A DNA stretch of 64,000 nt from Takakia lepidozioides (taxonomy: Eukaryota; Plantae; Bryophyta), in contig CM060732.1 in NCBI GenBank assembly GCA_030704615.1, positions 744,001-808,000 on the forward strand. The letters are read 5' to 3'. Positions 38,372 through 62,200 of this stretch are shown here, piece by piece (the first letter of the stretch is position 1; every line of letters begins with the position of its first letter). Below the pieces are notes generated by a model, which was not told the DNA's origin, did not search any database, and worked only from the letters and a program-made list of their open reading frames with translations. The position numbers and the translations under genes were made by a program.

Positions 38372-38806
38372 CGAAATCAACCTTGCGTCAACGCGAGGTT
38401 GATTTTTACCTCACTGGAATGAACAGAAGAGGTCATGTAGGTCAGCTAGCCAGAGATTTGAAGCACAGCACGATCAGCAGAGAACCGAAAACAAGGTTGC
38501 GTCAACGCAAGCTACATATGTGAACCTCCAAGGTGTCTATTATGCATATGAAACCAAACGTATGCAGCCCTCGAATCAACCTTACATTGAAGTGAGGTTG
38601 ATTTGGGTACCTGTTATGTGCATTCGTAGCATTTGAAATCTAGTTTAATGAAGTGCAAGGTATGGGAAGAAGATTGCTTGAAGCCCCCAAAACAACCTTG
38701 CGTCAACGCAAGGTAGATTTGGGGTTCGCCAGAGGGTTGCTTGATGCATTTCAGACTATGATGCAGCCCCATCAATCAACCTTGCGTCAATGCAAGGTTG
38801 ATTTGT
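38372..38806. repeat. Five dispersed ~30-bp imperfect palindromes
   Basis: AAATCAACCTTGCGTCAACGCGAGGTTGATTT at ~38374, with variants at ~38490, 38574, 38690, 38775. Confidence 0.8.
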
Positions 38807-39039
38807 GGGAGCTTGATCTGTCTGTTTGGGCAGCGGTTCACTCACAGGGATATTGATTCCATGTAGAGGAAAAGAAAAAGGAAAGCCGCGGGTAGAGATG
38901 GGGCTGTGGCAGAAGGTGGAGCTGAGGAAGAAGCATTTGACGAACACTATGAAGACAAGGTCCCAACCACCCAAGCTGCCGTCCATCCCACTGCCACTTT
39001 GACTTGCTCATTCTTGTCTATTGCTCATCGTCGAGCTTC

Positions 39040-39300
39040 ACCCCTTCCCCCATCATTGCTTTCAGGTCTCCAAAGCCCCATCCCGCGCTCCTGCTCTGCA
39101 CACCCTGCAAGCATCGCGTTCCACGACACCACTTCTCGTTCAGCCAGTGTTGAACACTCCCTTGGCATCCTCAATGCACCCACATTTGGCATACATGTCC
39201 ACCAGGGCAAGGTTCAGAATGACATCTGGTACAAATCCAGCTTGACGATGTCACCATGGACCTCTTTCCCCTTTTCCAGAGCTCCCAGCCTTGCACACGC
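39040..39300 (-). pseudogene. PLS-class PPR gene fragment
   Basis: DVILNLALVDMYAKCGCIEDAK..F / EREVVSWNAMLAGCAEQ, frameshifted. Confidence 0.75.
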
Positions 39301-39888
39301 ATTGCAAACACAAACAAACGTGATGTGGTTGGGCTTCACCCTTCGCACAACAGTTGCTCACCAGACTGATTTAATGTAAACTCAGGGTAGGGATCCTAGC
39401 TTTGAATAGCAAACAGAAGTAGAGAGGAAAGGGAGAGTAATTGCACCCAACTCAACTAATCACACTAGTGCTACAGGAGTCGGCGTCCAAAACGAAGGCA
39501 GAACTGTCTATGAAGACACTAGCCCTGCTTTGCACAAAACCCTCTTTGTTTAAAAGCAAACCAGGGGGAGAAGAGAGGAGACTAAATGCTGAAGCTGCAG
39601 CCTCCGCATAACATGGCAATTTAAAATCTGCTTTCGGACTTGGGAAAAATTGCGGGTTTGCAAATAAAGGGAGGAACCGTGGCGACCTTGGGCTCATGTA
39701 TACACAAATAAACTATGTAAGTCCACATACATTCAGCTGGCCCAACTTGTGCAGGAAAGATGGAAATGGAAGGATGCGCCGTCGTGTCAGTGAATTGCCA
39801 CAACTGAACTAGCACTTATTCACATGAGAAATCGGAATCAACATCCAAAGCATCGGGCTCTTACAGATCCGGCTCCACAACAATGTTC

Positions 39889-40775
39889 TCAGTCTGGGTC
39901 GAATGCGATGAACCCCCAGACAGAGGTGCGATGACTTGAGAGTAGCTGCTCGTCCCCCACCATCCCGAAAAAATGCCTGCCTGCATACTTGCATGCATGG
40001 AAGGAAGCCCCTGCAACAGTGCAAATGGATCCACGAAACAAAGTAAGAAGCACAATCTGAAGGCAAAGAAGTGCACCCAAGAAATGGAATTTGATTGGGC
40101 ACCAACCTGTTCCCATGGACAGGTTCACCACTTTCCCACCATGCCAGCTGCATATCTCAATCAAAGTCTGCATGAAAGCGAGTGACTTCTCCCGAGCACC
40201 TCTCCATGGAATGCCACCAATTTTTTTCAATGTCTGGGAGGAGTCCACATAGTTGTGGATAACATCGGATTCCACAGGGTCACATTCCGGGTCTATGTGA
40301 AGCCCCCCTTCCCAAACGTCGAAATGGCCAACATGAGCAGGAGTGGTGTCTGGCCGAATTCGAGCAAGACAAATGGCCTTGAACACATGTGTCTGCAGCA
40401 GCACCAATGTTAGAAACGTTGTTAAGGGCAATTCCACGAAACAATAACACACAAAAAAGCCCAGGTGAGTACCTTCTGCCCGGGAAACTCTACACTAGAT
40501 AGTGGCAGGGTGTTGACAAAGGTCCAAATTTTGCGGATTTTGAACCCCGAGGACTTCATGTAGCTGTGAAGCATCCGGCGGGATGCCATGTCCTCACCCT
40601 GGAAAATCAAAAGTGACCCAGCGTCAGACAGAAACTTGTTGCTGAAAGAGAAGGCCCACTGCCAATAAAGTGGATTATGAGCATTCCAAGCTAGAGTCAC
40701 ATCTGTGGGAATAATATCAGGCACTGGAAGCCCATCTGGGATGTCAAGGATGACAAGATCTGTCGCGTAGGGCTG
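39889..40775 (-). pseudogene. Beta-class N4/N6 DNA-methyltransferase-like module, copy 1 (5' part cut off by tandem array)
   Basis: Exons ~40775-40473 (DLVILDIPDG...FLSDAGSLLIF), 40392-40107 (PWRGAREKSLAFMQTLIEICS..GGKVVNLSMGTG), 40010-39889 (ASFHACKYAGRHFFGMVGD). Motif order IV...X-I-II is that of beta-class amino-MTases. Confidence 0.7.
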
Positions 40776-40783
40776 CTGCACTT

Positions 40784-42290
40784 GTGCCAAGCTCAAAACA
40801 CCTGTACTAGGAAGCACCAAACAGTGTGCGGCAACGCACATTTTTGGGCCCCCCTTCCCGGTTGTTTTTTTACTTCAAAATGGGCCACAAATGGCCCGTA
40901 TGCCATGCTCAAATTACCCCTAATTGGAAGCCCCAAACAGTGTGCTTCAAAGCACACTGTTTGAGCCCCCCTCTGTGCCTGTTTTTTGATTTCAAAATGG
41001 GCCATATTTGATGTCTAAATGTGCCACACAGGGCCAGTGTGCCAAGTTCAAAACACCCGTAGTTGGAAGCACCAAACAATGTGCGGCAATGCACACTGTT
41101 TGGGCCCCCCTTTCCGGTTGTTTTGCGACTTCAAAATGGGCCACAAATGGCCAGTATGCCATGCTCAAAATACCCCTGATTGGAAGCCCCAAACAGTGTG
41201 CTTCAAAGCACACTGTTTGAGGCCCCCTCTGTGCCTGTTTTTTTATTTTAAAATGGGCCATGTTTGATGTCTAAATGTGCCACACAGGGCCAGTGTGCCA
41301 AGTTCAAAACACCTGTAGTTGGAAGCACCAAACAGTGTGCGGCAATGCACATTTTTGGGCCCCCCTTCCCTATTGTTTTTTTACTTCAAAATGGGCCACA
41401 AATGGCCCGTATGCCATGCTCAAATTACCCCTAATTGGAAGCCCCAAACAGTGTGCTTCAAAGCACAATGTTTGAGCCCCCCTCTGTGCCTGTTTTTTGA
41501 TTTCAAAATGGGCCATGTTTGATGTCTAAATGTGCCACACAGGGCCAGTGTGCCAAGTTCAAAACACCCATAGTGGGAAACACCCAACAGTGGGTGGCAA
41601 CGCACACCGTTTGGGCCCCCCTTGTCAGTTGTTTTTTTTATTTCAAAATCGGAACCTTCAGGATTAGATGAAAGGGAAACCCAAGGATTGGTGAATCATA
41701 ACCTCCGTGTCAAAGGAAGCTCATTTCACGACGTCCTGCAAGATTTCCTATTCTACTTGTCACTCTGTGAATCTTACTATTCACGTGCTTTACTCGTTGA
41801 ACTGACTTGCCTTGTATCTGAAATTTTCTGAGTGAAGGTGGTTATGATCGCCAATGGAGCAAACGAAGTGATTGAAGCTGCAAACAAGATGTACCCACCC
41901 ACTCTCTTCATTCATATGCCCAAGGACTCTATCGAACCGCTTATCCAGCAATCATACCGTATATTGAAGGCCAATCATGCTCAAAATACCCCTAATTGGA
42001 AGCCCCAAATAGTGTGCGGCAACGCACACTGTTTTTATTTCAAAATGGGCCACAAAGGGCCAGTATGCCATGCTCAAAATACCCCTAATTGGAAGCCCTA
42101 AACAGCGTGCTTCAAAGCACACTGTTTGTGGCCCCCTCTGTGCCTGTTTTTTTAATTTCAAAATGGGCCATGTTTGATGTTTAAATGTGCCACACAGGGC
42201 CAGCGTGCCCAGTTCAAAACACCCGTAGTTGGAAGCACCAAACAGTGTGCGGCAACGCACACTGTTTGTGCCCCCCTTTCCGGTTTTTTG
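40784..42290. repeat. ~255-bp tandem array (two related subunits per unit), interrupted at ~41650-41965
   Basis: gtgccaag(t/c)tcaaaacacc recurs at 40784, 41039, 41295, 41550; the array resumes at ~41965. Confidence 0.92.
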
Positions 42291-42386
42291 TTTGTAAATC
42301 TGCCTTCTTGTTCCTCTTCTTGGTGGTTCTCGGATGGAGTTGCATAAGTTGCTCAAGCTTCTTAGATCTGGATGTCCTGTTCGCAG

Positions 42387-43361
42387 ACACGTTTGTTTGA
42401 AGCTATTTGTCTCGTCCGAGTGCATCCACCTACGACTCCAGCCGTCATTAGGGAGTTCGCCATCACTCATGGGGGCAAGTTCATAGACGAGAAGACAGAT
42501 CCTCCCACGGATGACATGCACCACAAGTACGTGGACAACAACGTCTGCTTGCATAGGGGGGATGGGGTTCCTTGGAGAGGGGCCAGGGAGAGGAGCCCGG
42601 CTTTCATTCAAACGATTGTGGAGTGCTGCACCTACACCGACGCCAGAGTTCTGGATTTGTCAATGGGCACAGGTTCGTCTCTTCAACATTCACATTTGAT
42701 CGGGTTTTTTGAGCTTGCTCTTTCAGCGCTTCTCACCGCTCCAAATGAGTCTTCAATATCTATTTCCTTCCTTCTATTCCATTGCAGGTGCTTCGTACCA
42801 CGCTTGCAAGGCCAGTGCGCGACATCTTTTTGGGATTGAAGGGGATGCCGAAATTTACAAGAACCTCCTGGTGGGTTTGGGTGGACAAACTTCTCAAGTC
42901 CTTCCAAAGCCGCTTCTCGGTGATATTGATACAGGGGAGACGTCCGACAAGGAGCTGGACTCCGACTTTGCCTGTGAGTAAGTTCAACCTGTGGATGCTT
43001 GCATTCTTGTTTCACTGGAATCACTGTTCTTAAGGCAAGGTGCACATGGGAGACATCCTCTTCGTTGGACTTGTGCATTGCATCATTGTATTCAAAATGG
43101 GTTTTTGTCGACTTGTGCAGGAGTCTGTGTGCTTTCACTGACCCTCCAGGGCTATCACAACTTCTTGGACTTCTTTCAAGTCCTCCTCAGTCTTACATGC
43201 TACCCGTCTATGTGGAGGCACTCGCAGCAAGCATGTCCGTTCATGGCACTCGCAGTCCAACCATCGACGGTCGTGGTAGAAGACGTGGTGTTGGGGCCGG
43301 AATCTTTGTGGATGACATAGCACAGGAGGTCGATTGTGATTCTGATGACTTTGACACTTGA
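42387..43361 (+). pseudogene. Beta-class DNA-methyltransferase-like module, copy 2 (C-terminal exons only)
   Basis: TRLFEAICLVR...PWRGARERSPAFIQTIVECCT...VLDLSMGTG|intron|ASYHACKASARHLFGIEGD. Last exon SYMLPVYVEALAAS...IFVDDIAQE resembles the tail of copy 3. Confidence 0.7.
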
Positions 43362-43659
43362 TATCAAGTTTTCTTTTACTTTTATTCGGGGCCAATTTTG
43401 AGATGGGATGGTGGTGTGTCTTTGTTGTCCTGTTTGCAATGTGTGCGTGGGATGCAAATTCCTGGGAACAAACTATCGTTGGAGATGGGGGTTGCATGGA
43501 CTGTCCGTATTGTTCCTTCAATCTCTTTAGTGTTTTCCGGAGCTCACAGTCTTGTGTGCATTGCAAAAACAAACAAACGTCTTTGGTTTGGGCAGTGCAT
43601 TCTTGCATCATTTGCTCGTTGGTCTCCAAACCATTCCAGCTAGAAGAATGCTTGGTAAA

Positions 43660-43850
43660 TCCACCACGTTAAAGTCCACGTGATCAAAGATTGTTCAGGC
43701 ATTCTTCTGCTGAGCATCCATGATGCTCCCGCACATACCATACATGTTGGCAAGGGTGGTAAGTAAGAAAACATTTCGCAGGGATCCGCTTGGGATGATG
43801 TGAGTGTGCACCTGCTCACGATGTAGCCACATTCCAATGCAAAGGCTTGT
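43660..43850 (-). pseudogene. PLS-class PPR gene fragment
   Basis: QVHTHIIPSGSLRNVFLLTTLANMYGMCGSIMDAQQ / MPEQSLITW. Confidence 0.65.
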
Positions 43851-44059
43851 TATGTTAATAACGTCTAAATAGATGCAATGGATAGATGGATACAATGGAT
43901 GTAACACATCCAGTCTGCATTCCCTGAAAATGGCTGATCAACTCACGGTAATAGGTGACACCCGCGGAAATAGGCCCTGTCTGCATGTTGACGTGGCGTG
44001 AGCCTGTGCTGGGCTCACGGGCTCCTGGGCTCATAGGCTCACTCCTCCGGGCTCACAGA

Positions 44060-44450
44060 GTAGCACCCCCCTCTTGCACTGGCTGCATGTGTACCCCTGG
44101 TCCGGCTGGGTCAGATTGTCAAAAAGGTCTGCAAGGACGTACTTCTGCGCGGTGCTCGTCTGAGCCTCGTGTGGTAAGTGGAAGATAGTCGCCAAGTAGG
44201 GCTCCGTAAGTAGAATCTGTGTATTGTGCACATGTATGGTGCAGGTGTTTGTGTTGTAATGTTCCAAAGACTCCTTGCACAACTCATCATGCTTGAGATT
44301 CCAATCCAGAGTGGTGATGAAGAAGGGAAGGCCAAGACTCTCCAAGATTGCCTGCGTATCCGAGTCCCTGTCACTTTTCCTTAATACTGGGCTGAGCTTA
44401 AAGCTCACCCTGGCATAAGGGCTTTGGCTCTTCCGCTTGGTGTCGGCCAT
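44060..44450 (-). pseudogene. Plant transposon accessory protein fragment (plant-mobile-domain / Athila ORF-like)
   Basis: LESLGLPFF...DELCKESLEHYN...IHVHNTQILLTEPYLATIFHLP resembles the I.LT...IA.IFxLP pattern of plant TE accessory ORFs. Confidence 0.45.
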
Positions 44451-45827
44451 TGCTCTTACTCGCGAGGTTGCAGCAAGGAATTGAACAATCAATTCCAGCA
44501 ATATCAAGAGCATACAGACGTGGTTATAAGGTAGTAACACCTAAATGTGTGCATTTAGTGAGTGTGGCTTACACAGGAGGTGCACTGAGGAGATAATGGT
44601 ACCATTGGATTAGCAATACAACAACCAGGGCCTCATATGAATTACAAACTTTTTCATGCAAGTGGCCATTTCATACGAATTATCAAAGTCTTGAATACAC
44701 ATTTGCCTATGTGTGTGCGGTAGACCCAACCAAAGCACACCCAAAATATATCTAATGCAAAGCCTGCAACTGCCTCACATGCACAAGTGCTGCATCTAAA
44801 AGCGTGCCCTCCTTAAGCCATTCATAACTTCGTGAGCACTTGCCCATGACTTGGCAACCATTCTATAGTGGTATTCAATGCATCAAAAGTCAAACCATTG
44901 ATGGTCTTAAAACTGACCACCAACGAAATCAATTCTGGCCAAAGAGATTTGCCAATGTGTGCAACGGTGGGCCTCAAAACTAACCACTCCAAATCAACTC
45001 TGACCAAAAACATTCTCAAAGCTGACTAAGCTTACATTCCAAATCCAAATCCACTTTGACAAAAGAGATTCACAAAAGACATGAACGTCCAGTATTGAAA
45101 CCAAAATCCGCCCCATAACTGCGCAGCCACTTTGTTTAAATGAACCAGCCGTCGTCCAGTATTGAAAACAAAATATGCCCCATCTGTGGTGGGATTGTTT
45201 GGTAGGTGATTAATTATGTGCAAATCGTGCTTAGTGTAATCTGCCAGCTTTAGTGATAACCATGCAATTATAAATACAGTAAGTACATGAATGAGTTGAT
45301 ACTGGGTCACCAAACTACCATATTTGTAGGCAATTATGGCCATTGGTGGTTCTTAAACAAACCAATGAAATCTGTTGATCCAGTCAAGGGCATCACCGCG
45401 CGCCAAGGAAGAAGCGGAGTGTATTTCTGCGGAAGAGCACCCTTAACCGCGGAAACAAGTTGGATGACATAATAAAAGGACGTGGTCATTCCCACCTGAA
45501 AGCAACAGATGAATACAGGATGAATGAATGTAGCTTTGGGTTGGAGGTCAACCAAGGAGGTTGCCTAGAATCGCCATGGAGTGGCGCATCTAACACGGGT
45601 GGCGCGGCCTGCCCCCGTGGGAAGAGTTGACCCCTGGAGCAAAGTACGCTCACTGGGGCACTGCGTGGCAGCACCAGGCGCCATAGCTGGGCCCGCGCAG
45701 GTACGACACGAGCGGCAGAGACGACGGAGCCTGCCTATTACCCGCTGGACCCGCGCCGGCGGCGGGCCAGCCACGCCGCGCCACGTAGCGCTGGTCGCGG
45801 GGTATCAGTCTTAACCGCTGGATAATT

Positions 45828-48800
45828 TGACGGACCCCGCCAGGGACTGATGGTCCCTGGATCGGGTATTTTAAGGGGGGTTTTCTCCCCATGCCTTTGA
45901 TTTCTTGTGCACTATTCATAGTATTCTTCTTGCATGAGAATAAGGGCTTGTTTTAGCCAAAGATAAGAAATGGCTGGAACCATTGGATAGGCCCCAGCGA
46001 GGCCATCAGTTTGATATGTATTCCGGGGTTTGTGAAAGCACGGCTCACGGGTAGATGCCATAGGCAGAGAGAGAGAGAGCCCAGAGACAGGGAGGAGAGA
46101 ATCCCTGCTGGGGTTTCACAAGGTAGAAGATGACATGTTTCAACTTCGTTCTAGGCTGGTTGTCTGCATAAATTAATCAGATTATATTCGAAGTAGGTGG
46201 AAGAGGCGCAGGGAATGGACCCTGGGACCCACTGAATGTTTAATCATTGTTTACACACCAGGGTGGCGAGCAGATGAGAAACTGCTGGGTGGCAAATTTC
46301 ATTCATCCTGGCCTGGTGATGGTTTAAGTTGCTAATGAGTTCTTGAGTGGTTTGGTGTAGGAATTTAGGGGCGCTCCCACGTGGAGAGTGGTTCCCCAAT
46401 GCTCCCGGCTTAAAAGGGCATTCCCAGGGCGTTCCCCTGGTACCTTGAGGGTAATTTAGTTAGCTCCAGCATCCTACGATGATTCTCTATTTCTACGAAT
46501 TTCATGCATTTGTAGGAATATTTTAATGATTTGTCTTTATTATTTGGCAGGGTAATTCGCCTTTATCAAGGGATTTTATCCGGACCCCCTTAACTTCGAA
46601 ACGCAAGTTTTAAGGGCGGTATCGCTCCCTTCCGCCGAGGATATTTGAAGTCGATTACCCGGCCGCTGGGGGGTCATTGAGCCAAGGAACGGCCGCTGGG
46701 GTTAGACCTCGGGAATTACCTGGAGGTTGAATTGTTACCATTCACCCGATGGACTGACCATTGAGGTTGCATTTTGGGATCGCTCTAAGCAGGAGAGACT
46801 GACTTGGGAAAGCGGATCCGGTCCCTTCCTAGGAGGTATGACACTCATCCACCTCGGGGTTTAGGGGGGGGCATTGGGCGGGAAATAGATGATCCCTGTC
46901 TCCCTGGGCTTGGGATTCGTTTTGTGAAGGGATTTGAAGGTTCGTCGCGGTTATAAGCGTGTTGGGAGTCCAGGCATGTAGGAAGTAGTAATAAACAAAG
47001 ACTTGGAAGGCAATTACGATTAAAGACGTAGAAAACCCATAAACAAAACGTAGGACTAGGAACTACGGACTAGGCTCACGTTGTGGGCCTATATCGTGTC
47101 GTTTCAAGCACCCGATCTGGCGAAGTGCGGACAGAAGATGCCATTGTGGTTTGCAGGTTAATGCGTAGACGTATCTTGGACATCACCAAAGAGTACTGTG
47201 GGTTCTGGATTTCGGCCAAAGTAGGGCCGTTGGGAGACAGGGCTCTTACCTCTCCCATCTCTTATTTTTTCAGATTCAATACGCGTTGGCCCGGATGTTG
47301 CCAACCCCCCTTCTTAGGGAACCTCAACGTGCAATCCGCGCTTGAAGGACATCTCGCCTGGCAAGTGGCGTATTTAGGGTGTTGCCCTCTATGTCAAACC
47401 ATTGCTGACGAGGGAATCGATTTTCATCGTCCCCGTCCCACTATTCGGAGGTCTGGAGAAGCTATCTCCTATCTAACCAAGAAGAGTTTTATTGACCTTC
47501 CTTTTGATTGGATGTGTTGGTTGTTTGGGTGTGGATTAGAAGACTATCTGGAGGTAGAGGAACGCCTGCCTCACCCGAACACTACCATCACCTATATCTG
47601 TCCACCCAGATTTTACAACAGCCGCAGTGACAGTGCAACAGCATTGATCATTGAATTAATCACTGACGGCCGATTGGACGTGGCGCCGAGGTGACCCTGG
47701 CGCTGAGGTCCAAGGAGAGCTGCTAACGGAAGAAATAGCATGCACTATCTTTAAAGGAATGATAGGGAGGAAACTGGTGGGGATTTCCCGTGCAAAGTAA
47801 AATGGCGGTGGCTGCTCTGGGTCCGCAATGACGCCTTGAGGAGCTGCTGAAGGAGGACCTTCAATCCAAGTAATATCATGTATGGGGGAATAGACAAGGA
47901 CTTGCCAGCAACAGAATAGGTAAAGCTGCCTCCAGCGATCGGGGAAGACCCCGCAGTTGCATTTATGCTTTCCATTTCATTTAACCATGTTCGCCAATTG
48001 GCACAATCAATGCAATGCTTGAAATCTAAAACGTCATCCACATCATGCGTTGGAGTGATAAGAATTTGCCGCATGAACTTCTAAAGTGGGTATGACTTTT
48101 GAGACTAGGATCAAGAGGATTCGAAGCAGATTCTGGCAACATGAACCAGACATTCAACTTATAATAGAAGCGTACATCGATCGCTTAGCTCAACGGAAAG
48201 CCATCAAGAAAGGGTGGATAGACGAACGGCTTTGGTGTGAACGACCCTCGTCAACAGATACACCAGAGCATATACCACTGGTGTAACGACAGGCTTAACT
48301 GGCCATATTGTTCGTGCCCGAGGATATACCTAGGGGCCTTGCACCCCCAGGTCTTCCTTCACAGCACACTTAAGGTGGCAGATAGATTTCTTCACTCATT
48401 GTCACGTATGCCAGCTCTTGGCGTCCCATTATGTGCGTAGACTGGATGAGTGTAGGTATTGCAGCATACCTCGACCACCTGAAGATTGGAAGATACCTGG
48501 AAGATTGCACACTGATGTGCCTCCATCGCCGTGGTTCCATGGAAGGTATGCAGATTTGACCTCGTTTATTCTTGACATGGTAGTTCAAGGAAATATAGGT
48601 CCTTCAGTACAGACTGAGGCAGGAGAATCCTCATCGGTACAACAGTGAGTGTATGTCTAGCTCAGGATCGAGAGATACACTCCCAAGCCTGGATAGCATA
48701 TCGCTTGATACCAGGTTACAAAGAAGACTGGCTACAGAAGCCGTCCGTGATCATTTGCTAGGGAAAAACCCAGCCTTGAGTCCAGAGTCAGACTCAGAAA

Positions 48801-49058
48801 TTAGAAATTTGGGAAAGATAGAGTGGGAAGGAGAGAACATTGAAAGTTCTTCGGACATCGAGTGTTCACGAGTGGTTTCCCCTATATCTAGTCCCCCTTA
48901 TATCCCACCAGCTAGGTCAAGGAGTCCCTCGCCGTCATCAGTGTCAATCATGGCACATATTCCAGGACCTCCTGAGGTACCCATTGTGGTTCCAGCAGGT
49001 TTACCCCCGCTCACATTGCCCAGGCATCTGCCTTGGTTCTCCGGGGAAGCACATGAAA
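45828..49058 (+). mobile_element. Gypsy-like LTR retrotransposon, 5' part (LTR-like region, degenerate upstream ORFs, start of gag)
   Basis: ORF 48653 ends LPRHLPWFSGEAHE, a typical gag N-terminal LPxFxG motif, and is cut at ~49059. A gag CCHC knuckle resumes at ~61415. LTR limits and PBS not resolved. Confidence 0.45.
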
Positions 49059-49276
49059 AGGGGGCTGCTATTTCATGAGCGGCATGAGTATGAGCGGGAA
49101 AAAAAAAAGCATGAGCGGGCCATTGTCTGTCCACGGAAATAGGGTTAGGAGGCACGGAAATAGGGTCATGTGGACTCGTCATAGCAATGAAATGCAACAT
49201 TTTATTGCAAATTTTGTGGCAGCCACGTCTATACAAGTGTGTCCTAACTGTCATAGCAGGAATGGGAACTACTCTC

Positions 49277-52200
49277 CTACACCTTCCGAGGAACTTGGCC
49301 CTCCTTCTTCCTCATCCCCCTCATCCCCCCATCCTCCGAGCTCTGTGATGCATCGGTTGTAGTATGCCTCTCAAAAATGCCGTCCTCTCCTTGGGGGACT
49401 GTCCACCTCACCTCCTGGGAATCCTCTACCTCTTCTCCCCCACTTTCCTCAGCAGAATCCAAGACAAATCTATGAGCCCGACGGGCTCTAATAGCTGATG
49501 CCTCCTCCCTCATCTTCATTTTCTTGAGGCTTGCCTCGTCTAAAATCTGCTGTACACGACTACGTTCGGAACACCTCCTAATGGACACCGAAGCAAGCTG
49601 GGCAATATAAGTAGGAAGGATGTAGTCCCTTTCTGGACTAGGCATGAAATCCCCCTGGCAAAAAAAGGCACGTTCCTCCTGCCCATGAACTCCGGTGTAG
49701 ACGTCCCTCCTGCCGTACTTGGCATCCTACAGTAAGAACAAATCCACTTCAAGAATGTCAATACCAGCAGAAGCAGAAAGGGTTTTCAATGAAATAAGAG
49801 AGCGAAGGGAGGTGCCTCACGAAATCTGGAGGCAACTTACAATGTGACCACTCACTCGTACACCGGGGGACTCCTCGGCCTCGATCCCAACTTGTTCCTC
49901 CCCCTGCTCCTTCTCGGATTTTTCCTCATCCTCTGAGGATGCCTCTTCCTCTTTTGGTAGACGTTCAGCCGCTGCAAGTTCCGAGTTGTGGAGGGCAGTA
50001 TCTGGCTCGAAGGCGAACACATGCCTGTTGGACAACGTCCCTGCCCACATTGAAGCACCTGAGGAACAAAGCGGGCGGTTAATAGCTTGCGGCATGCAAT
50101 TGCAATCGGGCCAGGGGACAAACTGAGCATGTGAAGGCTTACCCGTGCCGCATGTGAGGTCCAGAATCCGCCCTTGGACATCCAAGCACGTCTCCATGAG
50201 GGTTTGGATGAAAGCAGGGCTCCGGGTCCGGCTGTACCACCACGGTTTGCCTGTCTTTGTGTCCTTCGGCATACTGGAGTGGGGCACATAGTTGTAGAGG
50301 ACATTGTAGGTAACAGGGTCCACAGCGGCATCAACAAGACGACTGTCTTTGCGGAATTTGAACGTAGACCCTCTCTTCACAAAGCAATATGCCTCAAACA
50401 CCAATGTCTGCACATCCAACAAAAGAGGGATCAACTCCGAGATCTAGTTTAGATACACCACAATATGAGGTGAATGCAATAGATTGATAACGTACACTTT
50501 GGCCCTCTGTTCGCAACCCCTGTGTATTGATGCAGAACCATTTTCTGAGGAGGACCGGGGTGACACTTTTCGGTGTCCATCTTGCCACCGCATTCTCTAT
50601 GGTCTTCCCTCTTGTGGCAAGGACAACCACACATCCACCGTCATCCAGGAGCATCCCCGCCAGCCCAAACCCGGCTTTCCAGTAATCCTCAGTAAACCTG
50701 TTCCAGGTGGGCACACCATCTAGGCCCTCCAGCAGCTCCCCATCTAGAATGTCGAGGAGAATCATATCGCAAGCTCTCTCCACCTCAACCCCCCCCCCCG
50801 AGTGCTCTTGCAATCCGTGCTCACAGCCGTGAAGAATTCCATCATGGCTTCAAAATCAAGGGTGTCTTTAGGCTCTGTACCGGCAGCCCTCTTCTTGGCT
50901 TTCCCCTTCTGCTCCGCCAGAGACTTGTTGTGTGCCACCTTCTTTGCCCCGGCAGCGAGAGCGTCAAGGAAGCTCTCATTGACGCATTGGATGATGGTTG
51001 GAGGTTCTAGCTTTGGCCTGTGCGTAAACGTCACCGCCGAATACCGTCGTGTAGGCTCGCCCTCAAATGCCAACTTCTTGGCAGAGCCAGTCCCACTCCG
51101 AACTGACTTGGGAACCCGGACGACCAGTTACTTGGTAGCAGCAACAGCAGTCGCAGGACCTTGAACAAAGTCGTCGTCCGAGTCACTCCCTTGGGTCCCC
51201 TCCTACGCCTCCTCCGATGCCCCGATGGTTTTCTGTTTTTTGGGTGTTACTGTACTCACCTGTTTCCTTGTCCTTTTCCTTTGGCCTTTATTCTTCTCAT
51301 TCAATTTCTCCTGAATTCCTGCCTGAGCAAGCTCTGCGGCTTTCTTGGAGTTCGCAAGCGCTTTTGCCTCTTTTGCACCCAGCGGAGGCAGCGGAGCCCG
51401 GTTTCGTCGGGCCTCAGCATCCAGCTTCAATTGAAACTCGGATGGGTCGAGCGAGCCGGGCAGAAGGTCCACATACCAAGGGCAATCACGCAAATGTTCC
51501 AGATGCCACTCCTTCACAATATCGTCAGTGTACATGGAGTCAGCCCCATGGTTCCTCCATGCCAGGAAGAATGGTGGCTCGAAAGACAGATGACCTTTCT
51601 CCAAAAGGGAGAACTTGCAGTACCTGCATTCATGAAAAACACAATGAGGTCCCTGAACTGCAAATTCGGCACCATTTGTTCCATTCGGGTTTAGGGTTCG
51701 GCCTAGAAATGGAAAAATGGCGCCGAATTTCGGTTTTCGGTGACTGCCACCCTAGGGACTTAGCCATCTTGGGAGCCCGGAACTGGAAATTCGGCGCCAT
51801 TTTTCCCGGTTTGGCCCGAAAATGGCTAAGTTCCAAAACTGCCAGGGCCTAAAACTCGAAAAATGGCGCCGAATTTCGGTTTTTGTGCCAGCCACCCTAG
51901 GGACTTAGCCATTTTCGGAGCCCTGAACTGGAAATTCGGCGCCATTTTCCCTGGTCCGGCCCGAAAATGGCTAAGTCCCAGAACGGTAATAGGGCCTAGA
52001 ACTGGAAAAATGGCGCCGAATTTCCAGTTTAGGGCCAGCCACCCTAGGGACTTAGCCATTTTCGGAGCCCTGAACTGGAAATTCGGCGCCATTTTCCCAT
52101 TTCCGGCCCAAAAATGGCTAAGTCCCAGAACGGTAATAGGGCCTAGAACTGGAAAAATGGCGCCAAATTTTCAATTCAGGGCCAGGCACCCTAGGGACTT

Positions 52201-55108
52201 AGCCATTTTTGGAGCCCTGAACTGGAAATTCGGCACCATTTTCCCATTTCCGGCCCGAAAATGGCTAAGTCCCAGAACGGTAATATGGCCTTGAACTGGA
52301 AAAATGGCACCGAATTTCCAGTTCAGGGCCAGGCACCCTAGGGACTTAGCCATTTTCGGAGCCCTGAACTGGAAATTCGGCGCCATTTTCCCAAAGACCA
52401 ATTTTCATGCGCCACATGAGGCCTCTAACATCCTGAAATGCAAGGACTTGAAAACAAGGCATCGCGTATGTACTTGTACAGAAGGCGCATTGCTGCTTTG
52501 TCCGCGTTCGGCTGGTCGGTGAACTCGTGGCTCCGGCGGGCATGGGGTATCTCCCGAAAGAATAGGTCGGTTTTGTAGAGCAGAAAGTACCTCGTCACAT
52601 AGTCGCGTAGGCTCTCTGCTGCAGGAGAAATCTCCATCTTGAACTGATGTGCTTGTGTGTCCAGCTGCTCTTGCGCATTCGTCGTCACCTGTGGAGATTC
52701 TCCATCAGATCGCTTTCCTCAAAAAATACAATGAATCCACCCCCTACAAGAGTAGAAGCGCCAAACGAAACGTGGGGAAGTACCTGAAACCACCATGTCA
52801 TGCGGTTCATCCACATGTCGAATGTGGGGTCAGACAGTTTGTCCGGTTTGGGGAAGCTCCACATGTCCCTTGTACTTTGGGAACCATTCCAGATTTGGAG
52901 CCACCGGGTCTGTCCAACCACCCAGCATATTCGTAAGCGCCAAACACCACAAAAACGAGTTGTTGCCACCACAATTTGATTAAGAATGTATCACCTTTTC
53001 TGCACCATCCACACAGGATGTGGCTAGACGATGGAGCTTCTCCAATGTCATCGTGGGCTTCAGAGCGCGGGAGTAGTGCTTCCCCACCTCCACCAGAAAG
53101 TTGGCACCAAGGGCGGGATCAGCTATGGCCACGTACTTTACCATCCACGACTTGTACTTTATGCGGGCCCTGGCCTCCGCAGCTTTGAGATACGATTCGA
53201 GTGCCGGGAGGGTTAGATTCTTCTCCTCTGACTCCATGTAGAACCTCCGCGCATGTGCCAAATCCTGCTGAATTTTCGTCTGTCAAGAATGCGCACATAA
53301 GATTAGAGATCCTGCTCAACACTTTTCTTCTATTGGGGGAGGGGAGACACATTAGCTCAACAAAACAGTCAGGAGCTTTACCCGAAATATGTAGTCCACC
53401 ATGGCGTCCATGCTCAGCCTATACTAGGTTCTGTCTGCCTTTGCCTCCGACTTGCGCAGGAGGTCGGCACTGAACGAATTGGAAAACTCTTGCACCCCCT
53501 ACTTCCCGACATCCTTCACTCGGAAGAGCATATGGGACAAGTTGGTGGCAATGAAGGCATTCTCAGTCACCCAGCAATGCCACATTTCCATCAAACAATA
53601 CTGAAATGGGAATATTCAACAAATATGAGGATTCTCAATGAAATGACTTACAATCGGATGGGTCCAAAAGCAAGAGGCGTTGTAACTTACGAGTTGATGT
53701 CCGCCATTGCAGCTTTGAGAAGACTGCGATCTTTGGGCCCCGCAACCTTCAGCACAACACACTCCACGGCGAAATGCCAATCGAGGTCGTTGGGGTGGGC
53801 TTCGGCTATGTGCTCCATCCATGCCAGGAGGCGATGATTGCCGTCCCACACGTAAAACATCTTACCGGACAAGTGCTGGAAAAGAGGATTAGTAGCAATC
53901 GTTCTCTCGAACTCCTCATTTCGCCTTTGCCAATGGGGACCCCATTTGTCCACCTCATCGGAAGTGTGGGCACGGGAAGCTCCGTGGTCGTTCTCAATGG
54001 AAACGTAAAACGCGGCAGATCCCATTCGATATCCATCCCAGAAAGAGAATTTCAGCTTGTTGATATCGCCTGGGAGGGCAGGTCTCACCACCTGCAAAGA
54101 CACCAAGCGGCAAAGGGGAATCCGAAGCTTGGCCGGGTACACCATGCCCCCCAGCACCCTGCCAATGTTGCTGTGGGTTGCCTCCAACATCTTGGCAGTG
54201 GCCAACTTCATATCCGCCTCAAACATGACGTCTGTTGCAGAGGGGTTCTCCGACAGCCCACCAGGACCGCCAAATCCAGCCTGTATGTTGCGGGTTTGGG
54301 GCCTGGGGATGTCCGGGAGGATGTCATCCTGGTCAGAAAGCTCGGTGTCGTCCTCCTCAACATGGTGAACCATCGGCGAAACCACCTCGAGCACTCTCCT
54401 TGTCTCTACTGCCATCTCCCCGGCTTCACCTCAAACTTGCACAATCCGTGCTCTTTGTGGTGTTCTTTCCTCTCCTCCACTCTCCACCGTATGGGTAATT
54501 GCGGGGGCTGCTCTTGTCCGCGATGGTGTAACCGGTGTGTTACTGCCTCTTTGTGGTGTCTTGGAGGGATCCACCGTCTCTGTGTGTCCCTCGCTTACAT
54601 TGGCATCTGTCATTTGGGCACCCCTGGCCTCTTCAGTGGCCTTTTCTCTTTCCTCCTGGCTAGCCTTCTGTCTCGCCTGTTCTTTTGCCCTCTCTTTTGC
54701 CCTCTCACGGGCTTTCTGTTTCTTACTAGGGCTAGCAGCAGGGGAGCCCTCCAGGACGACCACCTTTGATTGAGGAGAAGGAACACCCTCGCGCGCACTG
54801 CTCATTCCCCCCTCCGCAGCCCGTGACGGCTCTCTCACCGGGGATTGCATGTGCTTAGCTTTCTTCTTCTTCTTTGCATGGGCGGGCCCTACTGCATGTG
54901 CATCAACAACCTCCATTGCCGGATCTACTGTCCTCACGTCCTCACGCCCTTCACCTGCCATGCCGCCTGCACCAACCTCCCCAATGCCTATTCTGTCGTA
55001 CCCTCGTTGCAGGTCCTCCCGTCCACCAACAAAAGGTTGAAGTTTGCCCTCTCGCCCCAAGTTGGGCGATTCAAACATGCGATGAGTTGGAGCGGTCGAT
55101 GATACCAC
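49277..55108 (-). pseudogene. Multi-exon ParB/Srx-like + beta-class DNA-methyltransferase-like fusion gene (copy 3), disrupted
   Basis: Low-complexity N-terminus 55108-54431. ParB-like segment 54415-53691 (LRIPLCRLVSLQVVRP...FYVWDGNHRLLAW). Further exons at ~53570-53382 (two TAG stops), ~53266-52995, ~52930-52783, ~52688-52430, ~51623-50490 (frameshifts; CDMILLDILDG...LLDDGGCVVVL), ~50408-50143 (PWWYSRTRSPAFIQTLMETC..GRILDLTCGTG), ~50058-49841 (ASMWAGTLSNRHVFAFEPD), ~49690-49277. All on one strand with GT-AG-like junctions; some boundaries are approximate. Confidence 0.65.
51650..52392. repeat. ~147-bp tandem array (about 5 units) inside an intron of the ParB-MTase gene
   Basis: caccctagggacttagccat...aactggaaattcggcgccattttcc recurs at ~51748, 51893, 52040, 52187, 52334. 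Confidence 0.92.
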
Positions 55109-56029
55109 CAGCGTGCCGGGCTCGTCGTCACTCTGTCATTCCCAAAAATCGTGAGAACCAACATCGGTGCCAAAACCAGCATCGCAACGAGCAGCGCAAC
55201 CACCATAGCAACAATCGTGGAACAACAATGAAAACAAATCCAACCAATGCCTAAGAATGACATGCACAAGTAGCCTTCTCCAGAGCTGCCGGCTTTGCAC
55301 ACGCATTGCAAACTATGTAAGGTTCACTCAACCGGTAATATGAAACACGATGAACAAATGATCAGGAATTCCATAAGACGGGAAAACAGGGTGAAATGTT
55401 TTGAAGGCACTTCATGTGCTCAGACATTCTTCACAGCTCAGCATGGATTTCCTTATTTTTAACCACTCAGACCTTGATCATTCTTCGCAACAGCTCCTGC
55501 TTTTGCGATGCAACCATACGCTTCCAGCGATGCCAGGATGAAGATGCGAAAACAAAGCGAAACAACAAAGCGAAAGCGAAAGCGAAAGCAAAAGCGAACA
55601 AAGCGAAAGCAGAAGTGGCTTGCCTGAGAGTACTCGGCTTCAGTTGGCGCGGGTTGTAAGCAAGACATTGGAATCTCCTGCTGGAGCTTAAGTTTGGCCA
55701 TGCGAGAGATTGGCTGTCGTCCAAAGTACAAAGCTCTCAACTTCCGCCGCGGTCTGGATGTGGGGTCTCTCTCAGGAGAGCCACGCCCTTCAGGCGGCAT
55801 AAGTCCTAGCCAAAAAGAAAAAAGATCTTAGTTTTTTGGGGTACATGCCTCGAATAGAAGTTAATCCAAGTTTAGCATCAGATTTAGGGTACGTATCGAG
55901 GAAGCAACCGCGGAATCCTTGTATCGCCAGCCCAAATCAAAACGGACGGCGGTGGACATTTAATGCCCAACTACGCAATTAAATGTCGGATGAAGCCCTC
56001 CCTGTCGGATGAAATATGACGCAACTCGG

Positions 56030-58150
56030 CCCCGAATTTCCAACGTAGAGGTAATTCGGAGCGCGGCAGGATGGGAATCCGGCGCCGGATTTCCATCCGC
56101 TAGGTAGGGCGGCGCGCAAAATTTCCGTCACGTAGGTAATTCTGCGCGCGGATGGATGGAAATTTGGCGCCGGATTTCCATCCGCCAGGAACGGCGGCGC
56201 GCGAAATTTCCGTCACGCAGGCAATTCTGCGCGCGGATGGATGGAAATCCGGCGCCGGATTTCCATCCGCCAGGTAGTCATGCTGGTAATTCAGAGCCGG
56301 ATGGATGGAAATCCGGCGCCAGATTTCCATCCGCCAGGTAGGGCGGTGCGTGAAATTTCCGTCACGCAGGTAATTCTGCGCGCGGATGGATGGAAATCCG
56401 GCGCCGGATTTCCATCCGCCAGGTAGGGCGGCGCGCCAAATTTTCGTCATGCAAGTAATTCGAAGCGCCGCAGGATGGAAATTCGGCGCCGAATTTCCAT
56501 CCTGCAGGTAATTTCAAGCGCCGAATTTCCGTCATGCAGGTAATTCGGAGCCCGGATGGATGGAAATTCGGCGCCGAATTATCATCCTGCAGGTAATTCT
56601 GAGCGTGGCCGCTTGGTTTTTCGGAGAAACACACAGTAAACTGTTAGTTTTGTGGCTGAAGTCCACTTTTAGACACATTTTTCATGGACTCCTCGACTGC
56701 TAGAGGGAAATCGGAACGGGCCCGGACGAAAATTCGGCGCCGTTTTTCCATCCTGGGAGGTTTTTATATCGTCCAGTTTTTGGCCTCACCACCCGACCGG
56801 ACTTCCTTTGATAGGGCCCGGATGGAAATTCGGCGCCGAATTTCCATCCGGGGGATGCTCTCTGTCGGACAGGTGCCGTCCTCTCCGCCCGAGGCGACTT
56901 CACCCGGGCGTCCCCTCTTGGATATTCGGTGCCGAATTTCCGTCCGGGGGTTGAAATGTGACGGCCAGGTGCCGGCCTCTCCCCCCTCCCCGACTGCATC
57001 CGAACGGCCCCGGATGGAAATTCGGCGCCGTTTTTCCATCCGGGGAGGTTTTTATGTCGACCAGTTTTCGGTCTGACCCCCCGACACGACTTCCTTTGGG
57101 GGGGCCCGGATGGAAATTCAGTGCCGAATTTCCATCCAGGGGATGCTCTCTGTCGGACACGTGCCGGCCTCTCCGCCCGAGGCGACTTCATCCGGGCGTC
57201 CCCTGTTGGATATTCGGTGCCGAATTTCCGTCCGGGGGTTGAAATGTGACGGCCAAGTGCCGGGCTCTCCCCCCTCCCCGACTGCCTCCGAACGGCCCCG
57301 GATGGAAATTCGGCGCCGTTTTTCCATCCGGGGAGGTTTTTATGTCGACCAGTTTTCGGCCTGACCCCCGACACGACTTGTTTTGGGGGGGCCCGGATGG
57401 AAATTCGGCGCCGAATCTCCATCCTGGGGATGCTCTCTGTCGGACAGGTGCCGGCCTCTCCCCGAGGCGACTTCATCCGGGCGTCCCCTGTTGGATATTC
57501 GGTGCCGAATTTCCGTCCGGGGGTTGAAATGTGACGGCCAGGTGCCGGCCTCTCCCCCACCCAACTGCCTCCGAACGGCCCCGGATGGAAATTCGGCGCC
57601 GTTTTTCCATCCGGGGAGGTTTTTATGTCGGCCAGTTTTCGGCCTGACCCCCCGACACGACTTCCTTTGGGGGATCCGGATGGAAATTCGGCGCTGAATT
57701 TCCATCCGGGGGATGTTCTCTGTCGGACAGGTGCCGGCCTCTCCGCCCAAGGCGACTTCATCCGGGCGTCCCCTGTTGGATATTCGGTGCCGAATTTCCG
57801 TCCGGGGGTTGAAATATGACGGCCAGGTGCCGGCCTCTCCCTCCTCCCCGATTGCCTCCGAACGGCCCCGGATGGAAATTCGGCGCCGTTTTTCCATCCG
57901 GGGAGGTTTTTATGTCGGCCAGTTTTCGGCCTAACCCCCCGACACGACTTCCTTTGGGGGGATCCGGATGGAAATTCGGCGCTGAATTTCCATCCGGGGG
58001 TTGTTATCTGTCGGACAGGTGCCGGCCTCTCTGCCCCAGGCGACTTCATCCGTGCGGCCCCGGTTGGATATTCGGTGCCGAATTTCCATTCGGGGGTAGT
58101 AATGTGACGGCACAGTGCCGGCTTCTCCCCTTCAGCCGACATCATCCGGA
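56030..58150. repeat. Palindrome-based tandem arrays: short irregular units 56030-56600 and ~287-bp units (about 5) 56700-58150
   Basis: Core GGATGGAAATTCGGCGCCGAATTTCCATCC is a perfect 30-bp palindrome, extending to 36 bp at 56817-56852. Each long unit holds three variants. Confidence 0.93.
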
Positions 58151-58393
58151 CGGCCCCCCACTTTCTGACTGCATACCGTTGGCAGTTATTGCGCAAAGAC
58201 CACGGGCCGCATTCCTGAGACAAGGTTCATTAACACTCTGACTGTGGATTTTTGAGATAGTTGGCTCCCTGGATTTGGATCAGGCTTCGTCGCTCGGACA
58301 AATCGGCACCGCATTCCTTCCCATCGTTGTATCCCCCTTCTACCAGGGAGCTTGCCCGCACGCCATCCTGGGAGTCTTGTGTGCACATCTCCC

Positions 58394-61243: not shown

Positions 61244-62200
61244 AACCCATTCGATTCGCGAGTGGGCCATCTAGAGGCACAAATCACTTCTCTCATCAAG
61301 ACCATTGAAACAACGGGCGACCGCATGAGCTCAATCGGTCAGCAGATTACCAGCTATGTGGGGTACCGAGATGCGGCCCCAGTTGGAGAGTCCGGCCCCA
61401 ACTCGGCCAAGGTATGGTGTTCCAATTGCAACAACTCGGGACATGTGTCTCAACACTGTCCTTATCCCATTCGGGAAAGGCAGGTAAGCCGGAACCCAAC
61501 TTATCAAGATAACCAAAAAAGGCAATTCAATCAATCCCGTAGAGGATGTCAAAAGTGCGGAAGAACCACTCACCCGACTGAAATTGTTGGAGTGACATGT
61601 GTGTTTTGCACTGTGGCCAACGAGGTCACCCCCTTGGACAAATGTCCTCATAGATAAGTGGACATCCTACGCGCGGCCACCATTCAACAAGTAGAGAGGA
61701 ATTTGGAAGGGCAGCGAGCACCCTTCCCGGATCAGTATACCACTGAACCACGCACCCTTGTACCACAACAGCATAGCATGTATTTTGCTACTCCAATGCA
61801 AATAGCGCAATGGCCTAGAATAGATCAGGCGGGCCCATCATATTCTGGGGGCAATGCAGCTATGGGATAGAATTCCCAAGCAGCCTATTCAATCTTGCGG
61901 CTCAGATCCCCAGGGTTCTCTAATACGTGATCTCCCCCTCAGGATGTAAGGGTGCAGGGAGGGCAGCAGCGTCCACTTCAGCGCCATCCCAGCAGTAGGC
62001 CAGATGCATCCCGGTCAGTCGTCCCGTCAACACAGAGGCGCAGCACCAGGTCAATTGGATTTCCAGTGAGCTCGGCGCCACTCAAACTCTGCAGGCTACC
62101 CCAGAGGAAGGTAGCTATGTAGTAATGACCCGACAGCAACGAGATACGCTAGGGAAAGGCCCTGGGTATGTGGCGTCGGAGTCAGCCACATCGGCATCAG
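61244..62200 (+). mobile_element. Gypsy-like gag C-terminal remnant
   Basis: Coiled-coil-like LEAQITSL followed by the CX2CX4HX4C knuckle CSNCNNSGHVSQHC and degenerate further knuckles; stops downstream. Confidence 0.6.

What the first reader, a model, noticed from the sequence alone, without database searches (positions are those of the whole stretch)
39889..50800. Three diverged methyltransferase-like paralogues within 11 kb share intron positions
Seen: copies at 39889-40775 (-), 42387-43361 (+) and 49277-50800 (-) are strongly diverged in sequence. All have an intron just before T-x-[VL]-F-x-A and a phase-1 intron splitting the G-T-G|A-S SAM-binding motif. All share PW-x-x-x-R-x-[KR]-S-x-A-F-x-Q-T, and copies 2 and 3 share a Y-[MI]-L-P-x-Y tail. 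Inference: an old, intron-bearing, diversified eukaryotic family spread by transposition, not bacterial contamination or a single recent transfer.
Basis: partly seen in the sequence, partly recalled or inferred. Interest (0 to 1): 0.75.

Follow-up and report, generated by a model that had tools for sequence, protein, structure and literature searches.

The report
Transposon-borne ParB-methylase relics, altered active site
The three spliced, methyltransferase-like copies are real but broken pieces of a gene that one copy shows riding inside an abundant plant jumping-gene element, whose protein likely recognises the element's own palindromic repeats and likely no longer methylates DNA in the usual way; a similar design is already described in algae.

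Summary
Observation confirmed. Three paralogues (36-42% identical) share a phase-0 and a phase-1 intron, and likely a third; intron sequences are unalignable. They are not a stand-alone gene cluster. Copy 3 is the 3' end of a broken spliced gene of about 5.9 kb, colinear with a Ceratodon protein that joins a ParB-like domain to a beta-class N6/N4 DNA methyltransferase (PF01555). It lies back to back with a Mutator (MULE) transposase in one high-depth unit of about 12 kb that holds 30 copies of one palindrome. Copies 1 and 2 are 5'-truncated fragments of other lineages beside a different palindrome array, with no transposase. The catalytic motif lacks its aromatic residue in 6 of 7 plant sequences (D-I-P-D here; D-I-P-Y or D-P-P-Y in phage relatives), so I favour a self-recognition protein with a dead or altered methylase over an active self-methylase. 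No binding or activity was tested. The ParB-methylase design is published for an Ectocarpus Sola element. This scan found the system before on other DNA (24 notes match; at least one is Mutator-like with an altered motif). New variant of a known kind.

The parts
39812..40781 (-). Copy 1: methyltransferase-domain fragment (motif IV D-I-P-D-G, exons 40781-40473, 40392-40107, 40010-about 39816); cut at the 5' side by the repeat array; frameshift near 39950, stop at 39863, third donor reads AT
40783..41649 (.). 255-bp tandem array with palindrome CAAACAGTGTGC-N6-GCACACTGTTTG, abutting copy 1
41976..42289 (.). Second stretch of the same array, abutting intron 1 of copy 2 (10 palindrome copies in both stretches together)
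42387..43361 (+). Copy 2: exons 42387-42672, 42788-42977, 43121-43361, open frame of 238 codons to a stop; the exon with motif IV is missing
49277..50790 (-). Copy 3: methyltransferase domain and tail (motif IV D-I-L-D-G), 3' end of the long gene; frameshift at the G run near 50790 and one-base indels against other copies
50790..55133 (-). Upstream exons of the same gene: low-complexity N-terminus, ParB-like domain, helical region; 5 in-frame stops (54433, 53501, 53426, 51205, 51130)
53693..54133 (-). ParB-like domain with D-G-N-H-R-L-L-A (fits GxxRxxA); 47% identical to Ceratodon P0051
51624..52473 (-). 850-nt intron holding a 147-bp tandem array with 7 copies of the element's palindrome; spliced out in a contig of run X7
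55979..58157 (.). 85-bp and 96/288-bp tandem arrays between the two genes, 23 copies of the palindrome GGAAATTCGGCGCCGAATTTCC (up to 4 mismatches), perfect arms up to 18 bp
58256..60900 (+). MULE (Mutator) transposase, divergent from the ParB-methylase gene; stops at 59522 and 59561, indels against other copies at 60329 and 60755; intron 60483-60567; 3' end approximate
49056..61250 (.). Whole high-depth unit (boundaries approximate, from depth and one loose end); flanked by gag-like sequence; no TIR or target-site duplication found

Best explanation
The three copies are broken remnants of a spliced gene that joins a ParB-like domain to a beta-class DNA-methyltransferase domain, and copy 3 sits with a Mutator transposase in one abundant element, so the gene is likely transposon cargo whose protein likely binds the element's own palindrome arrays and likely acts without normal methyl transfer. 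Shown: the fusion, the shared introns, the divergent transposase, the shared high depth, 30 palindromes confined to the element, and the missing aromatic residue in motif IV. Inferred: the ParB-like part would dimerise on the two-fold palindromes, as ParB does on parS, and might spread along the element; the methylase-fold part would still bind SAM and DNA but could not stack a flipped base, and so would serve as a scaffold or shield that keeps the element transposable or less silenced, in the manner of VANC. Each family would co-evolve its own palindrome, which would explain why three old lineages and three different palindromes lie within 20 kb. Their closeness here is likely a pile-up of nested insertions and deletions, not a working cluster.
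For: Colinear tblastn hits of P0051 along 54133-50141; P0051 passes PF01555 (30.4 bits, cut-off 26.7); ParB-like PHROG hit E 0.0028; 29 of 30 Atlas hits for 59564-60340 carry PF10551 MULE. Run X1 depth is 136,000-645,000 in all 24 bins from 49001 to 61000 and 194,000 in 61001-61500, against 3,379, 2,145 and 1,679 in the flanking bins (summed contig depth, not a copy number). 30 of 30 matches to the copy-3 palindrome start between 51711 and 58066. Motif IV: D-I-P-D, D-I-L-D, D-T-P-F, H-L-P-T, D-L-P-N, D-V-P-S, D-I-P-S in 7 plant rows against D-I-P-Y (2) and D-P-P-Y (2) in 4 phage rows; the canonical motif and the stacking role of its aromatic residue are stated in PMC4738411. G-x-G of motif I and the acidic residue after the next strand are kept in copies 2 and 3 and P0051. 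Purifying selection during divergence. Precedent for arrays beside ParB-type cargo: 10.1101/2025.02.11.637652; for a TE protein binding its own tandem motifs: PMC5735166.
Against: No binding, CTP or methylation data exist here. Five of the 7 plant motif-IV rows come from decayed genes, so some losses may be decay, and L018 has a near twin (L010); the Ceratodon protein keeps an aromatic residue (F). Both structure predictions failed (mean pLDDT 43 and 49), so neither the ParB fold, an HTH nor the active site is confirmed in 3D; the ParB profile hit no ParB in the PDB or Pfam. No TIR or target duplication was found. 0 of 18 related loci hit the window's transposase (12 of 18 are under 4.3 kb), and a tandem-repeat scan of the 6 longest loci showed no array like those in the window (not a palindrome search). 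CpG is depleted in the element's genes (o/e 0.54-0.81), so copies were probably methylated by the host at some time. Which array belongs to copy 1 or copy 2 is unknown.
Confidence: 0.5

Rival explanations
1. Same transposon cargo, but the enzyme is active: it binds the palindromes and writes 6mA or 4mC on its own element with a non-standard catalytic motif.
For: The domain is kept over long branches with the first Asp, the second Pro and the SAM loop conserved; D-I-P is a natural variant in phage relatives; Ceratodon has D-T-P-F. Proposed for the algal gene in PMC12477816 and by most earlier scan notes.
Against: 6 of 7 plant rows lack the aromatic residue; copies 1 and 3, far apart in the tree, both have Asp there; two lineages of loci have Ser with the following N-L kept. 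The Phe of the D-P-F SAM motif is also replaced in all plant rows that cover it.
Confidence: 0.27
2. The gene is passive or exhausted cargo (Pack-MULE-like): it was under selection long ago, and the arrays are transposase-binding or by-product repeats unrelated to it.
For: All window copies are broken; PPR fragments lie next to all three copies, as expected of elements that pick up host pieces; no MULE partner in 18 related loci.
Against: Spliced contigs of related copies exist in runs guessed to be RNA; other copies lack the stop at 51205 (35 contigs in X1); 16 of the 31 listed coding differences that I classified are synonymous (a partial list chosen by the tool, 860 and 739 more rows not shown).
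Confidence: 0.15
3. A domesticated host gene cluster of amino-methyltransferases, like the tandem MpDN4MT1a/b genes of Marchantia.
For: Three paralogues close together; beta-class order of motifs; the tree does not reject one clade for the three (p-AU 0.189).
Against: No S-P-P-Y (MpDN4MT1 has TSPPY); copies are truncated, broken and in different orientations; copy 3 lies in a high-depth unit with a transposase.
Confidence: 0.06
4. Bacterial contamination, or chance similarity read into intron-like gaps.
For: No Pfam hit for any window copy; first homolog searches found nothing.
Against: Scores far above shuffles, exact splice in an RNA-type contig, plant relatives, no ParB-domain relative in bacterial genomes or viral contigs by pattern search.
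Confidence: 0.01

Closest known systems
Accessory gene of Sola1-1_Ec32, Ectocarpus (PMC12477816; passages and three supplementary table rows seen)
   Same: One protein with a ParB-like domain and an N4C/N6A DNA methyltransferase domain (1104 aa), on the strand opposite to the transposase, in a giant DNA transposon; proposed there to bind and modify its own element.
   Different: Brown alga and Sola1 with TIRs and 4-bp TSD there; land plant and MULE here, ends not found. The passages seen do not describe the catalytic motif or palindromes. Sequence homology to the algal protein was not tested.
Plavaka accessory genes PAG2 and PAG3 of red algae (bioRxiv 10.1101/2025.02.11.637652; passages seen)
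   Same: PF01555 methylase and ParB-like domains as transposon cargo, tandem arrays of inverted repeats beside the ParB-type gene, cargo moving between superfamilies including Mutator.
   Different: The two domains are in separate genes (methylase + SET; ParB + 2OG oxygenase); here they are fused.
VANDAL / VANC of Arabidopsis (PMC5735166; abstract and introduction read)
   Same: TE-encoded protein, tandem repeats of a family-specific motif inside the element. That VANDALs are Mutator-like is recalled.
   Different: VANC binding and demethylation are shown by experiment; no ParB or methylase domain is described in what I read; here nothing is shown.
Prokaryotic beta-class amino-methyltransferases (DpnA-type 5HEK/5HFJ, M.MboIIA, CcrM; phage D-I-P-Y enzymes)
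   Same: Motif order IV, then X-I-II; profile hit to 5HEK E 1.9e-6; PHROG 67 covers P0051 902-1115.
   Different: Introns, fusion to about 900 further residues, loss of the aromatic residue in most plant members.
MpDN4MT1 (Marchantia; 10.1101/2021.02.12.428880, passages) and N4CMT (bdelloids; PMC8885841, passages)
   Same: Eukaryotic PF01555-type beta-class enzymes of prokaryotic origin; N4CMT also gained introns.
   Different: Active host genes with S-P-P-Y that write 4mC; not described as transposon cargo with ParB in the passages seen.
Ceratodon purpureus KAG0631975.1 / KAG0579660.1 and Adiantum capillus-veneris GOP47_0010707 (hypothetical proteins)
   Same: Same family: ParB-like domain, helical middle, methylase-like C-terminus.
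   Different: Ceratodon has D-T-P-F and its model ends soon after the domain; the Adiantum models add a NIF/FCP1 phosphatase-like domain. Their genomic context was not seen.

Membership tests
Beta-class N6/N4 DNA methyltransferase (PF01555) | Catalytic motif before the SAM-binding motif | tested here: met
   Alignment with 4 phage enzymes
Beta-class N6/N4 DNA methyltransferase (PF01555) | Pfam score above cut-off | tested here: inconclusive
   Window exons: no hit. Relatives: 1 of 34 passes (P0051), 10 of 34 listed at E up to 1
Beta-class N6/N4 DNA methyltransferase (PF01555) | [DNSH]-P-P-[YFW] catalytic motif | tested here: not met
   D-I-P-D (copy 1), D-I-L-D (copy 3), absent in copy 2; aromatic in 1 of 7 plant rows
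Beta-class N6/N4 DNA methyltransferase (PF01555) | SAM loop (F-x-G-x-G) and acidic residue after the next strand | tested here: inconclusive
   G-x-G kept in 3 of 3 copies, Phe replaced, Glu kept in copies 2 and 3 but not in copy 1
Beta-class N6/N4 DNA methyltransferase (PF01555) | Methyl transfer to DNA | not testable with these tools
   needs assay or long-read methylation data
MULE / Mutator DNA transposon | MULE-type transposase | tested here: met
   29 of 30 Atlas hits carry PF10551, scores up to 0.93; Pfam HMM itself gave no hit
MULE / Mutator DNA transposon | Terminal inverted repeats and 9-bp target duplication | tested here: inconclusive
   None found; ends may be deleted; non-TIR MULEs are recalled
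MULE / Mutator DNA transposon | Multi-copy unit with sharp ends | tested here: met
   Depth step of 40- to 380-fold against flanking bins in X1
ParB/Srx CTP-binding domain | GxxRxxA signature (PMC13495010) | tested here: met
   G-N-H-R-L-x-A in 3 of 3 rows; PHROG 1033 E 0.0028
ParB/Srx CTP-binding domain | ParB fold, HTH, CTP binding | tested here: inconclusive
   Model unusable; no ParB hit in PDB
Sola1-1_Ec32-type ParB-methylase accessory gene | Fused ParB-like and N4/N6 methylase domains opposite a transposase | tested here: met
Sola1-1_Ec32-type ParB-methylase accessory gene | Sequence homology to the algal protein | not tested
MpDN4MT1 / N4CMT 4mC writers | S-P-P-Y motif | tested here: not met
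VANC anti-silencing proteins | Binding to own tandem motif and loss of methylation over the element | not testable with these tools
   only the layout is alike; VANC homology not tested

The most novel reading that the evidence does not exclude
Non-seed land-plant DNA transposons carry a bacterial-type CTP-dependent sliding clamp that loads at parS-like palindromes of their own and drags a methylase-derived pseudo-enzyme over the element, shielding it from host silencing; protein and palindrome co-evolve family by family, as VANC and its repeats do, but from a wholly different origin.
Probability: 0.2. Interest if true: 0.85.

Novelty: new variant of a known kind. Interest (0 to 1): 0.5.

Why it matters
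Only VANDAL/VANC is shown to bind and modify its own element (stated in 10.1101/2025.02.11.637652). A ParB-methylase cargo with a defined 22-36 bp candidate site, in an abundant land-plant element with spliced transcripts from related copies, makes the published algal proposal testable. The missing aromatic residue matters because it decides between two mechanisms: a new methyl mark in plants, or a repurposed dead enzyme. The locus itself is dead, the design is in print for algae, and this scan has met it many times, which caps the interest.

Tried and rejected
No genome is held, so no copy count, neighbour table or dN/dS among intact copies. Pfam on 141 window frames: no hit for any copy; again at E up to 5 on 15 stretches. 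Word-indexed homolog searches with copy 1 (30 candidates) and with the exon-2 alignment (1724 candidates): 0 hits. PDB with copy 3 alone: nothing significant. AlphaFold of the ParB domain (3 rows) and of the Ceratodon methylase domain (24 rows): pLDDT 43 and 49, not used, no fold search run; a second alignment misplaced the exon-1 rows and was dropped. ParB-pattern scans: 0 of 103 candidates in viral contigs, 0 of 28 in prokaryote genomes; the exon-2 alignment had no usable pattern. A GCM-like zinc domain in the transposase is a recalled reading of its H-D-G-H-P-W and Cys/His pattern; no tool supported it. Tree of 53 rows x 101 columns (P0030 and P0031 dropped): copies 1 and 2 group with P0002 (98/94), copy 3 is unresolved; one clade for the three is not rejected (p-AU 0.189), so the tree shows long branches, not separate origins. 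No RNA holder listed for 39800-43400; RNA status of X7 and X8 is a guess. TIR and TSD searches negative. A DDE-like gene upstream of the ParB exon in L014/L015 gave no Pfam hit and no match in 16 other loci or the window. Long six-frame read-through scans did not run. Paper searches (0 papers) listed no description of the land-plant version; the library lacks most subscription papers, and Iyer et al. 2011 (ref. 50 of PMC12477816) was not read. Supplements of the Bostrychia preprint were not seen, nor any sequence in the Ectocarpus supplements; either may list land-plant homologues or the algal catalytic motif.


Full report
Observation. Six-frame reading and spliced models confirm three related coding stretches at the stated places. 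Two introns fall at the same alignment columns: phase 0 before T-x-[VL]-F-x-A (copies 1 and 3 complete, copy 2 acceptor only) and phase 1 in the last Gly of G-T-G (3 of 3). All five complete introns are 80-115 nt and GT..AG. Pairwise scores (260, 227, 131) are far above 500 shuffles each (maxima 48-53). Identity by codon position is 0.61/0.66/0.43, 0.51/0.61/0.37 and 0.41/0.63/0.36, and five of six intron pairs score no better than shuffles (80-265 of 300 as high; the sixth 16 of 300). So the protein was under selection while the introns diverged beyond recognition. A third intron after [CY]-E is shared by copies 2 and 3 and L010, with a dead donor in copy 1; its phase in copy 3 agrees only when the one-base indels seen in other copies are allowed for. 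A contig of run X7, guessed to be RNA, joins the exons around intron 1 of a copy-3 relative exactly.

What the copies are. No window copy hits Pfam. The Atlas gave N6_N4_Mtase as a lead at 0.89-0.90 behind 18 unnamed clusters. A profile of the shared exon found 50 proteins among 1.84 billion, nearly all unnamed gene-caller fragments, many starting or ending at the same intron positions. Reading upstream of copy 3 showed more exons. A search with one of them returned 4 proteins of 363 candidates: a 1147-residue Ceratodon protein and three Adiantum proteins. The Ceratodon protein passes PF01555 and aligns in order along 54133-50141 of the window. Its N-terminal conserved domain has G-N-H-R-L-x-A, fitting the ParB signature GxxRxxA, and the window's domain hits a ParB-like PHROG at E 0.0028; the fold was not confirmed. 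A joint in X7 removes the 850-nt intron 51624-52473, linking the exons on both sides of the intronic array. In 4 of 18 metagenome loci found with the ParB domain the methylase exon follows downstream (L001, L010, L016, L018); 12 of the 18 are under 4.3 kb. The host is a land plant (PPR fragments, moss and fern relatives); earlier notes on this genome call it a likely moss, which I did not test.

The element. On the other strand, 58256-about 60900 encodes a protein for which 29 of 30 Atlas hits carry PF10551 MULE, though the Pfam model itself does not score it. In run X1 depth is 136,000-645,000 in every bin from 49001 to 61000 and 194,000 in the next, against 1,679-3,379 in three flanking bins. 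This is summed contig depth, not a copy number, but it shows both genes and the arrays in one abundant unit of about 12 kb, set in gag-like sequence (read by eye). I found no TIR or target duplication; the ends may be deleted. The window copy is dead: 5 stops and at least one frameshift in the ParB-methylase gene, 2 stops in the transposase; other copies lack at least the stop at 51205. All 30 matches to one 22-bp palindrome lie inside the unit, 7 in the intron and 23 between the genes. Copies 1 and 2 lie head to head, each cut at its 5' side by a 255-bp array with a different palindrome (10 copies). Copy 2 lacks the exon with the catalytic motif; its remaining 238 codons are open, it is multi-copy in low-coverage runs, and contigs of 2253 and 2005 nt in X7 and X8 carry a related exon that ends at the donor. 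Copy 1 has a frameshift, a stop and a dead donor. Neither has a transposase beside it. The tree gives long branches but does not settle whether the three form one clade.

Mechanism. Aligned with four phage methyltransferases picked up by the Ceratodon protein, the plant domain has the beta order of motifs and is nearest to DpnA-type structures (E 1.9e-6). Two phage enzymes have D-I-P-Y-N and two D-P-P-Y. The plant rows read D-I-P-D, D-I-L-D, D-T-P-F, H-L-P-T, D-L-P-N, D-V-P-S, D-I-P-S: the aromatic residue that stacks on the target base (PMC4738411, passage) is missing in 6 of 7. Five of the 7 are decayed genes, but copies 1 and 3 share Asp and two locus lineages share Ser with the next residues intact, which looks like a family trait. 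The SAM loop keeps G-x-G but not the Phe. My best reading: the ParB-like part likely binds the element's own palindromes and the methylase part likely works as a non-catalytic or altered module that helps the element stay mobile (0.5). An active 6mA/4mC self-marker is the main rival (0.27), then passive cargo (0.15), a host cluster (0.06) and artefact (0.01). Against my reading: no binding or activity data, failed structure models, an aromatic residue in Ceratodon, no MULE partner in 18 related loci and no comparable tandem arrays in the 6 longest, and CpG depletion in the element's genes.

Known systems. PMC12477816 (passages) describes a 1104-residue ParB-like + N4C/N6A methyltransferase gene opposite the transposase of Ectocarpus Sola1-1_Ec32 and proposes self-binding and self-modification. 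The Bostrychia preprint (passages) reports PF01555 and ParB-like cargo genes and inverted-repeat arrays in red-algal Plavaka and other elements. VANC (abstract and introduction) is the tested functional model. MpDN4MT1 and N4CMT (passages) have S-P-P-Y and differ. The DAM-retrotransposon preprint (abstract and first third of results) concerns another family; sections 8 and 9 of PMC4738411 list no such land-plant clade. Searches listed no paper on the land-plant version, within a library that lacks most subscription papers. I had reached the ParB-methylase-MULE reading before opening earlier notes (stated). The notes then gave me the VANC, Ectocarpus and red-algal papers, which lowered my view of novelty; 24 notes match the system, and e1-10602788 already reports a Mutator-like case with an altered motif and palindromes. 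Most notes favour an active enzyme; my motif comparison leans the other way. They are not independent support.

Verdict. What stands out here is three old lineages side by side with shared introns, family-specific palindromes, and a consistent loss of the catalytic aromatic residue against D-I-P-Y phage relatives. New variant of a known kind; interest 0.5.

Noticed in passing
window 38374-38809: A third palindrome family (AATCAACCTTGCGTCAACGCAAGGTTGATT type, about 5 places) shares the core TGCG[GT]CAACGCA with the copy 1/2 array but has other arms; possibly the relic of a sister element.
   Followed up: partly
window 17749-19419 and 31943-32404; 22584-22881 and 31659-31930: Arrays of the perfect 16-bp palindrome CAATTCAATTGAATTG in long inverted arms, 99-bp arrays, and an rve_4 integrase-core frame at 20603-20962: another DNA transposon with palindrome arrays.
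   Followed up: no
window 39000-39370, 43500-43800, 55270-55460: Decayed PPR fragments lie beside all three copies, one inside the copy-3 element (the second and third by DNA match and by eye).
   Followed up: partly
window 41650-41975: Unrelated coding-like piece with a likely intron sits in the middle of the 255-bp array; no match to the ParB-methylase proteins.
   Followed up: partly
window 50027-50494: Contigs of X7 and X8 join exon 1 of a copy-3 relative to exon 3, skipping the exon between the two shared introns (table 5).
   Followed up: no
P0053, P0054 (Adiantum): Fern relatives add a NIF/FCP1 phosphatase-like domain after a more degenerate methylase domain; may be a gene-model fusion or a real swap of effector.
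   Followed up: no
L015 3500-5200 (also L014): Decayed cysteine-rich, DDE-like gene with D-F-x-E-N-Y and H-G-K-G-x-x-D-G motifs (recalled as transposase signatures) about 4.5 kb upstream of the ParB exon; would mean the cargo rides other transposases, but may be chance nesting.
   Followed up: partly
P0019, P0037, P0047: 3 of 49 hits read straight through motif I into the next helix, so the phase-1 intron is absent in that clade or these come from transcripts; 31 break off there and 15 were not parsed; 16 of 49 show Q|T-x-x-F at the intron-1 position.
   Followed up: partly
window 27638-30293, 33500-35300, 36000-37400, 11667-12438: LINE endonuclease and RT frames, a GST gene, a copia fragment and kinesin exons.
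   Followed up: no
window 55979-58157: CpG o/e is 1.13 in the palindrome arrays against 0.38-0.81 in the 12 other stretches measured; may reflect selection, recent homogenisation or protection from deamination.
   Followed up: partly
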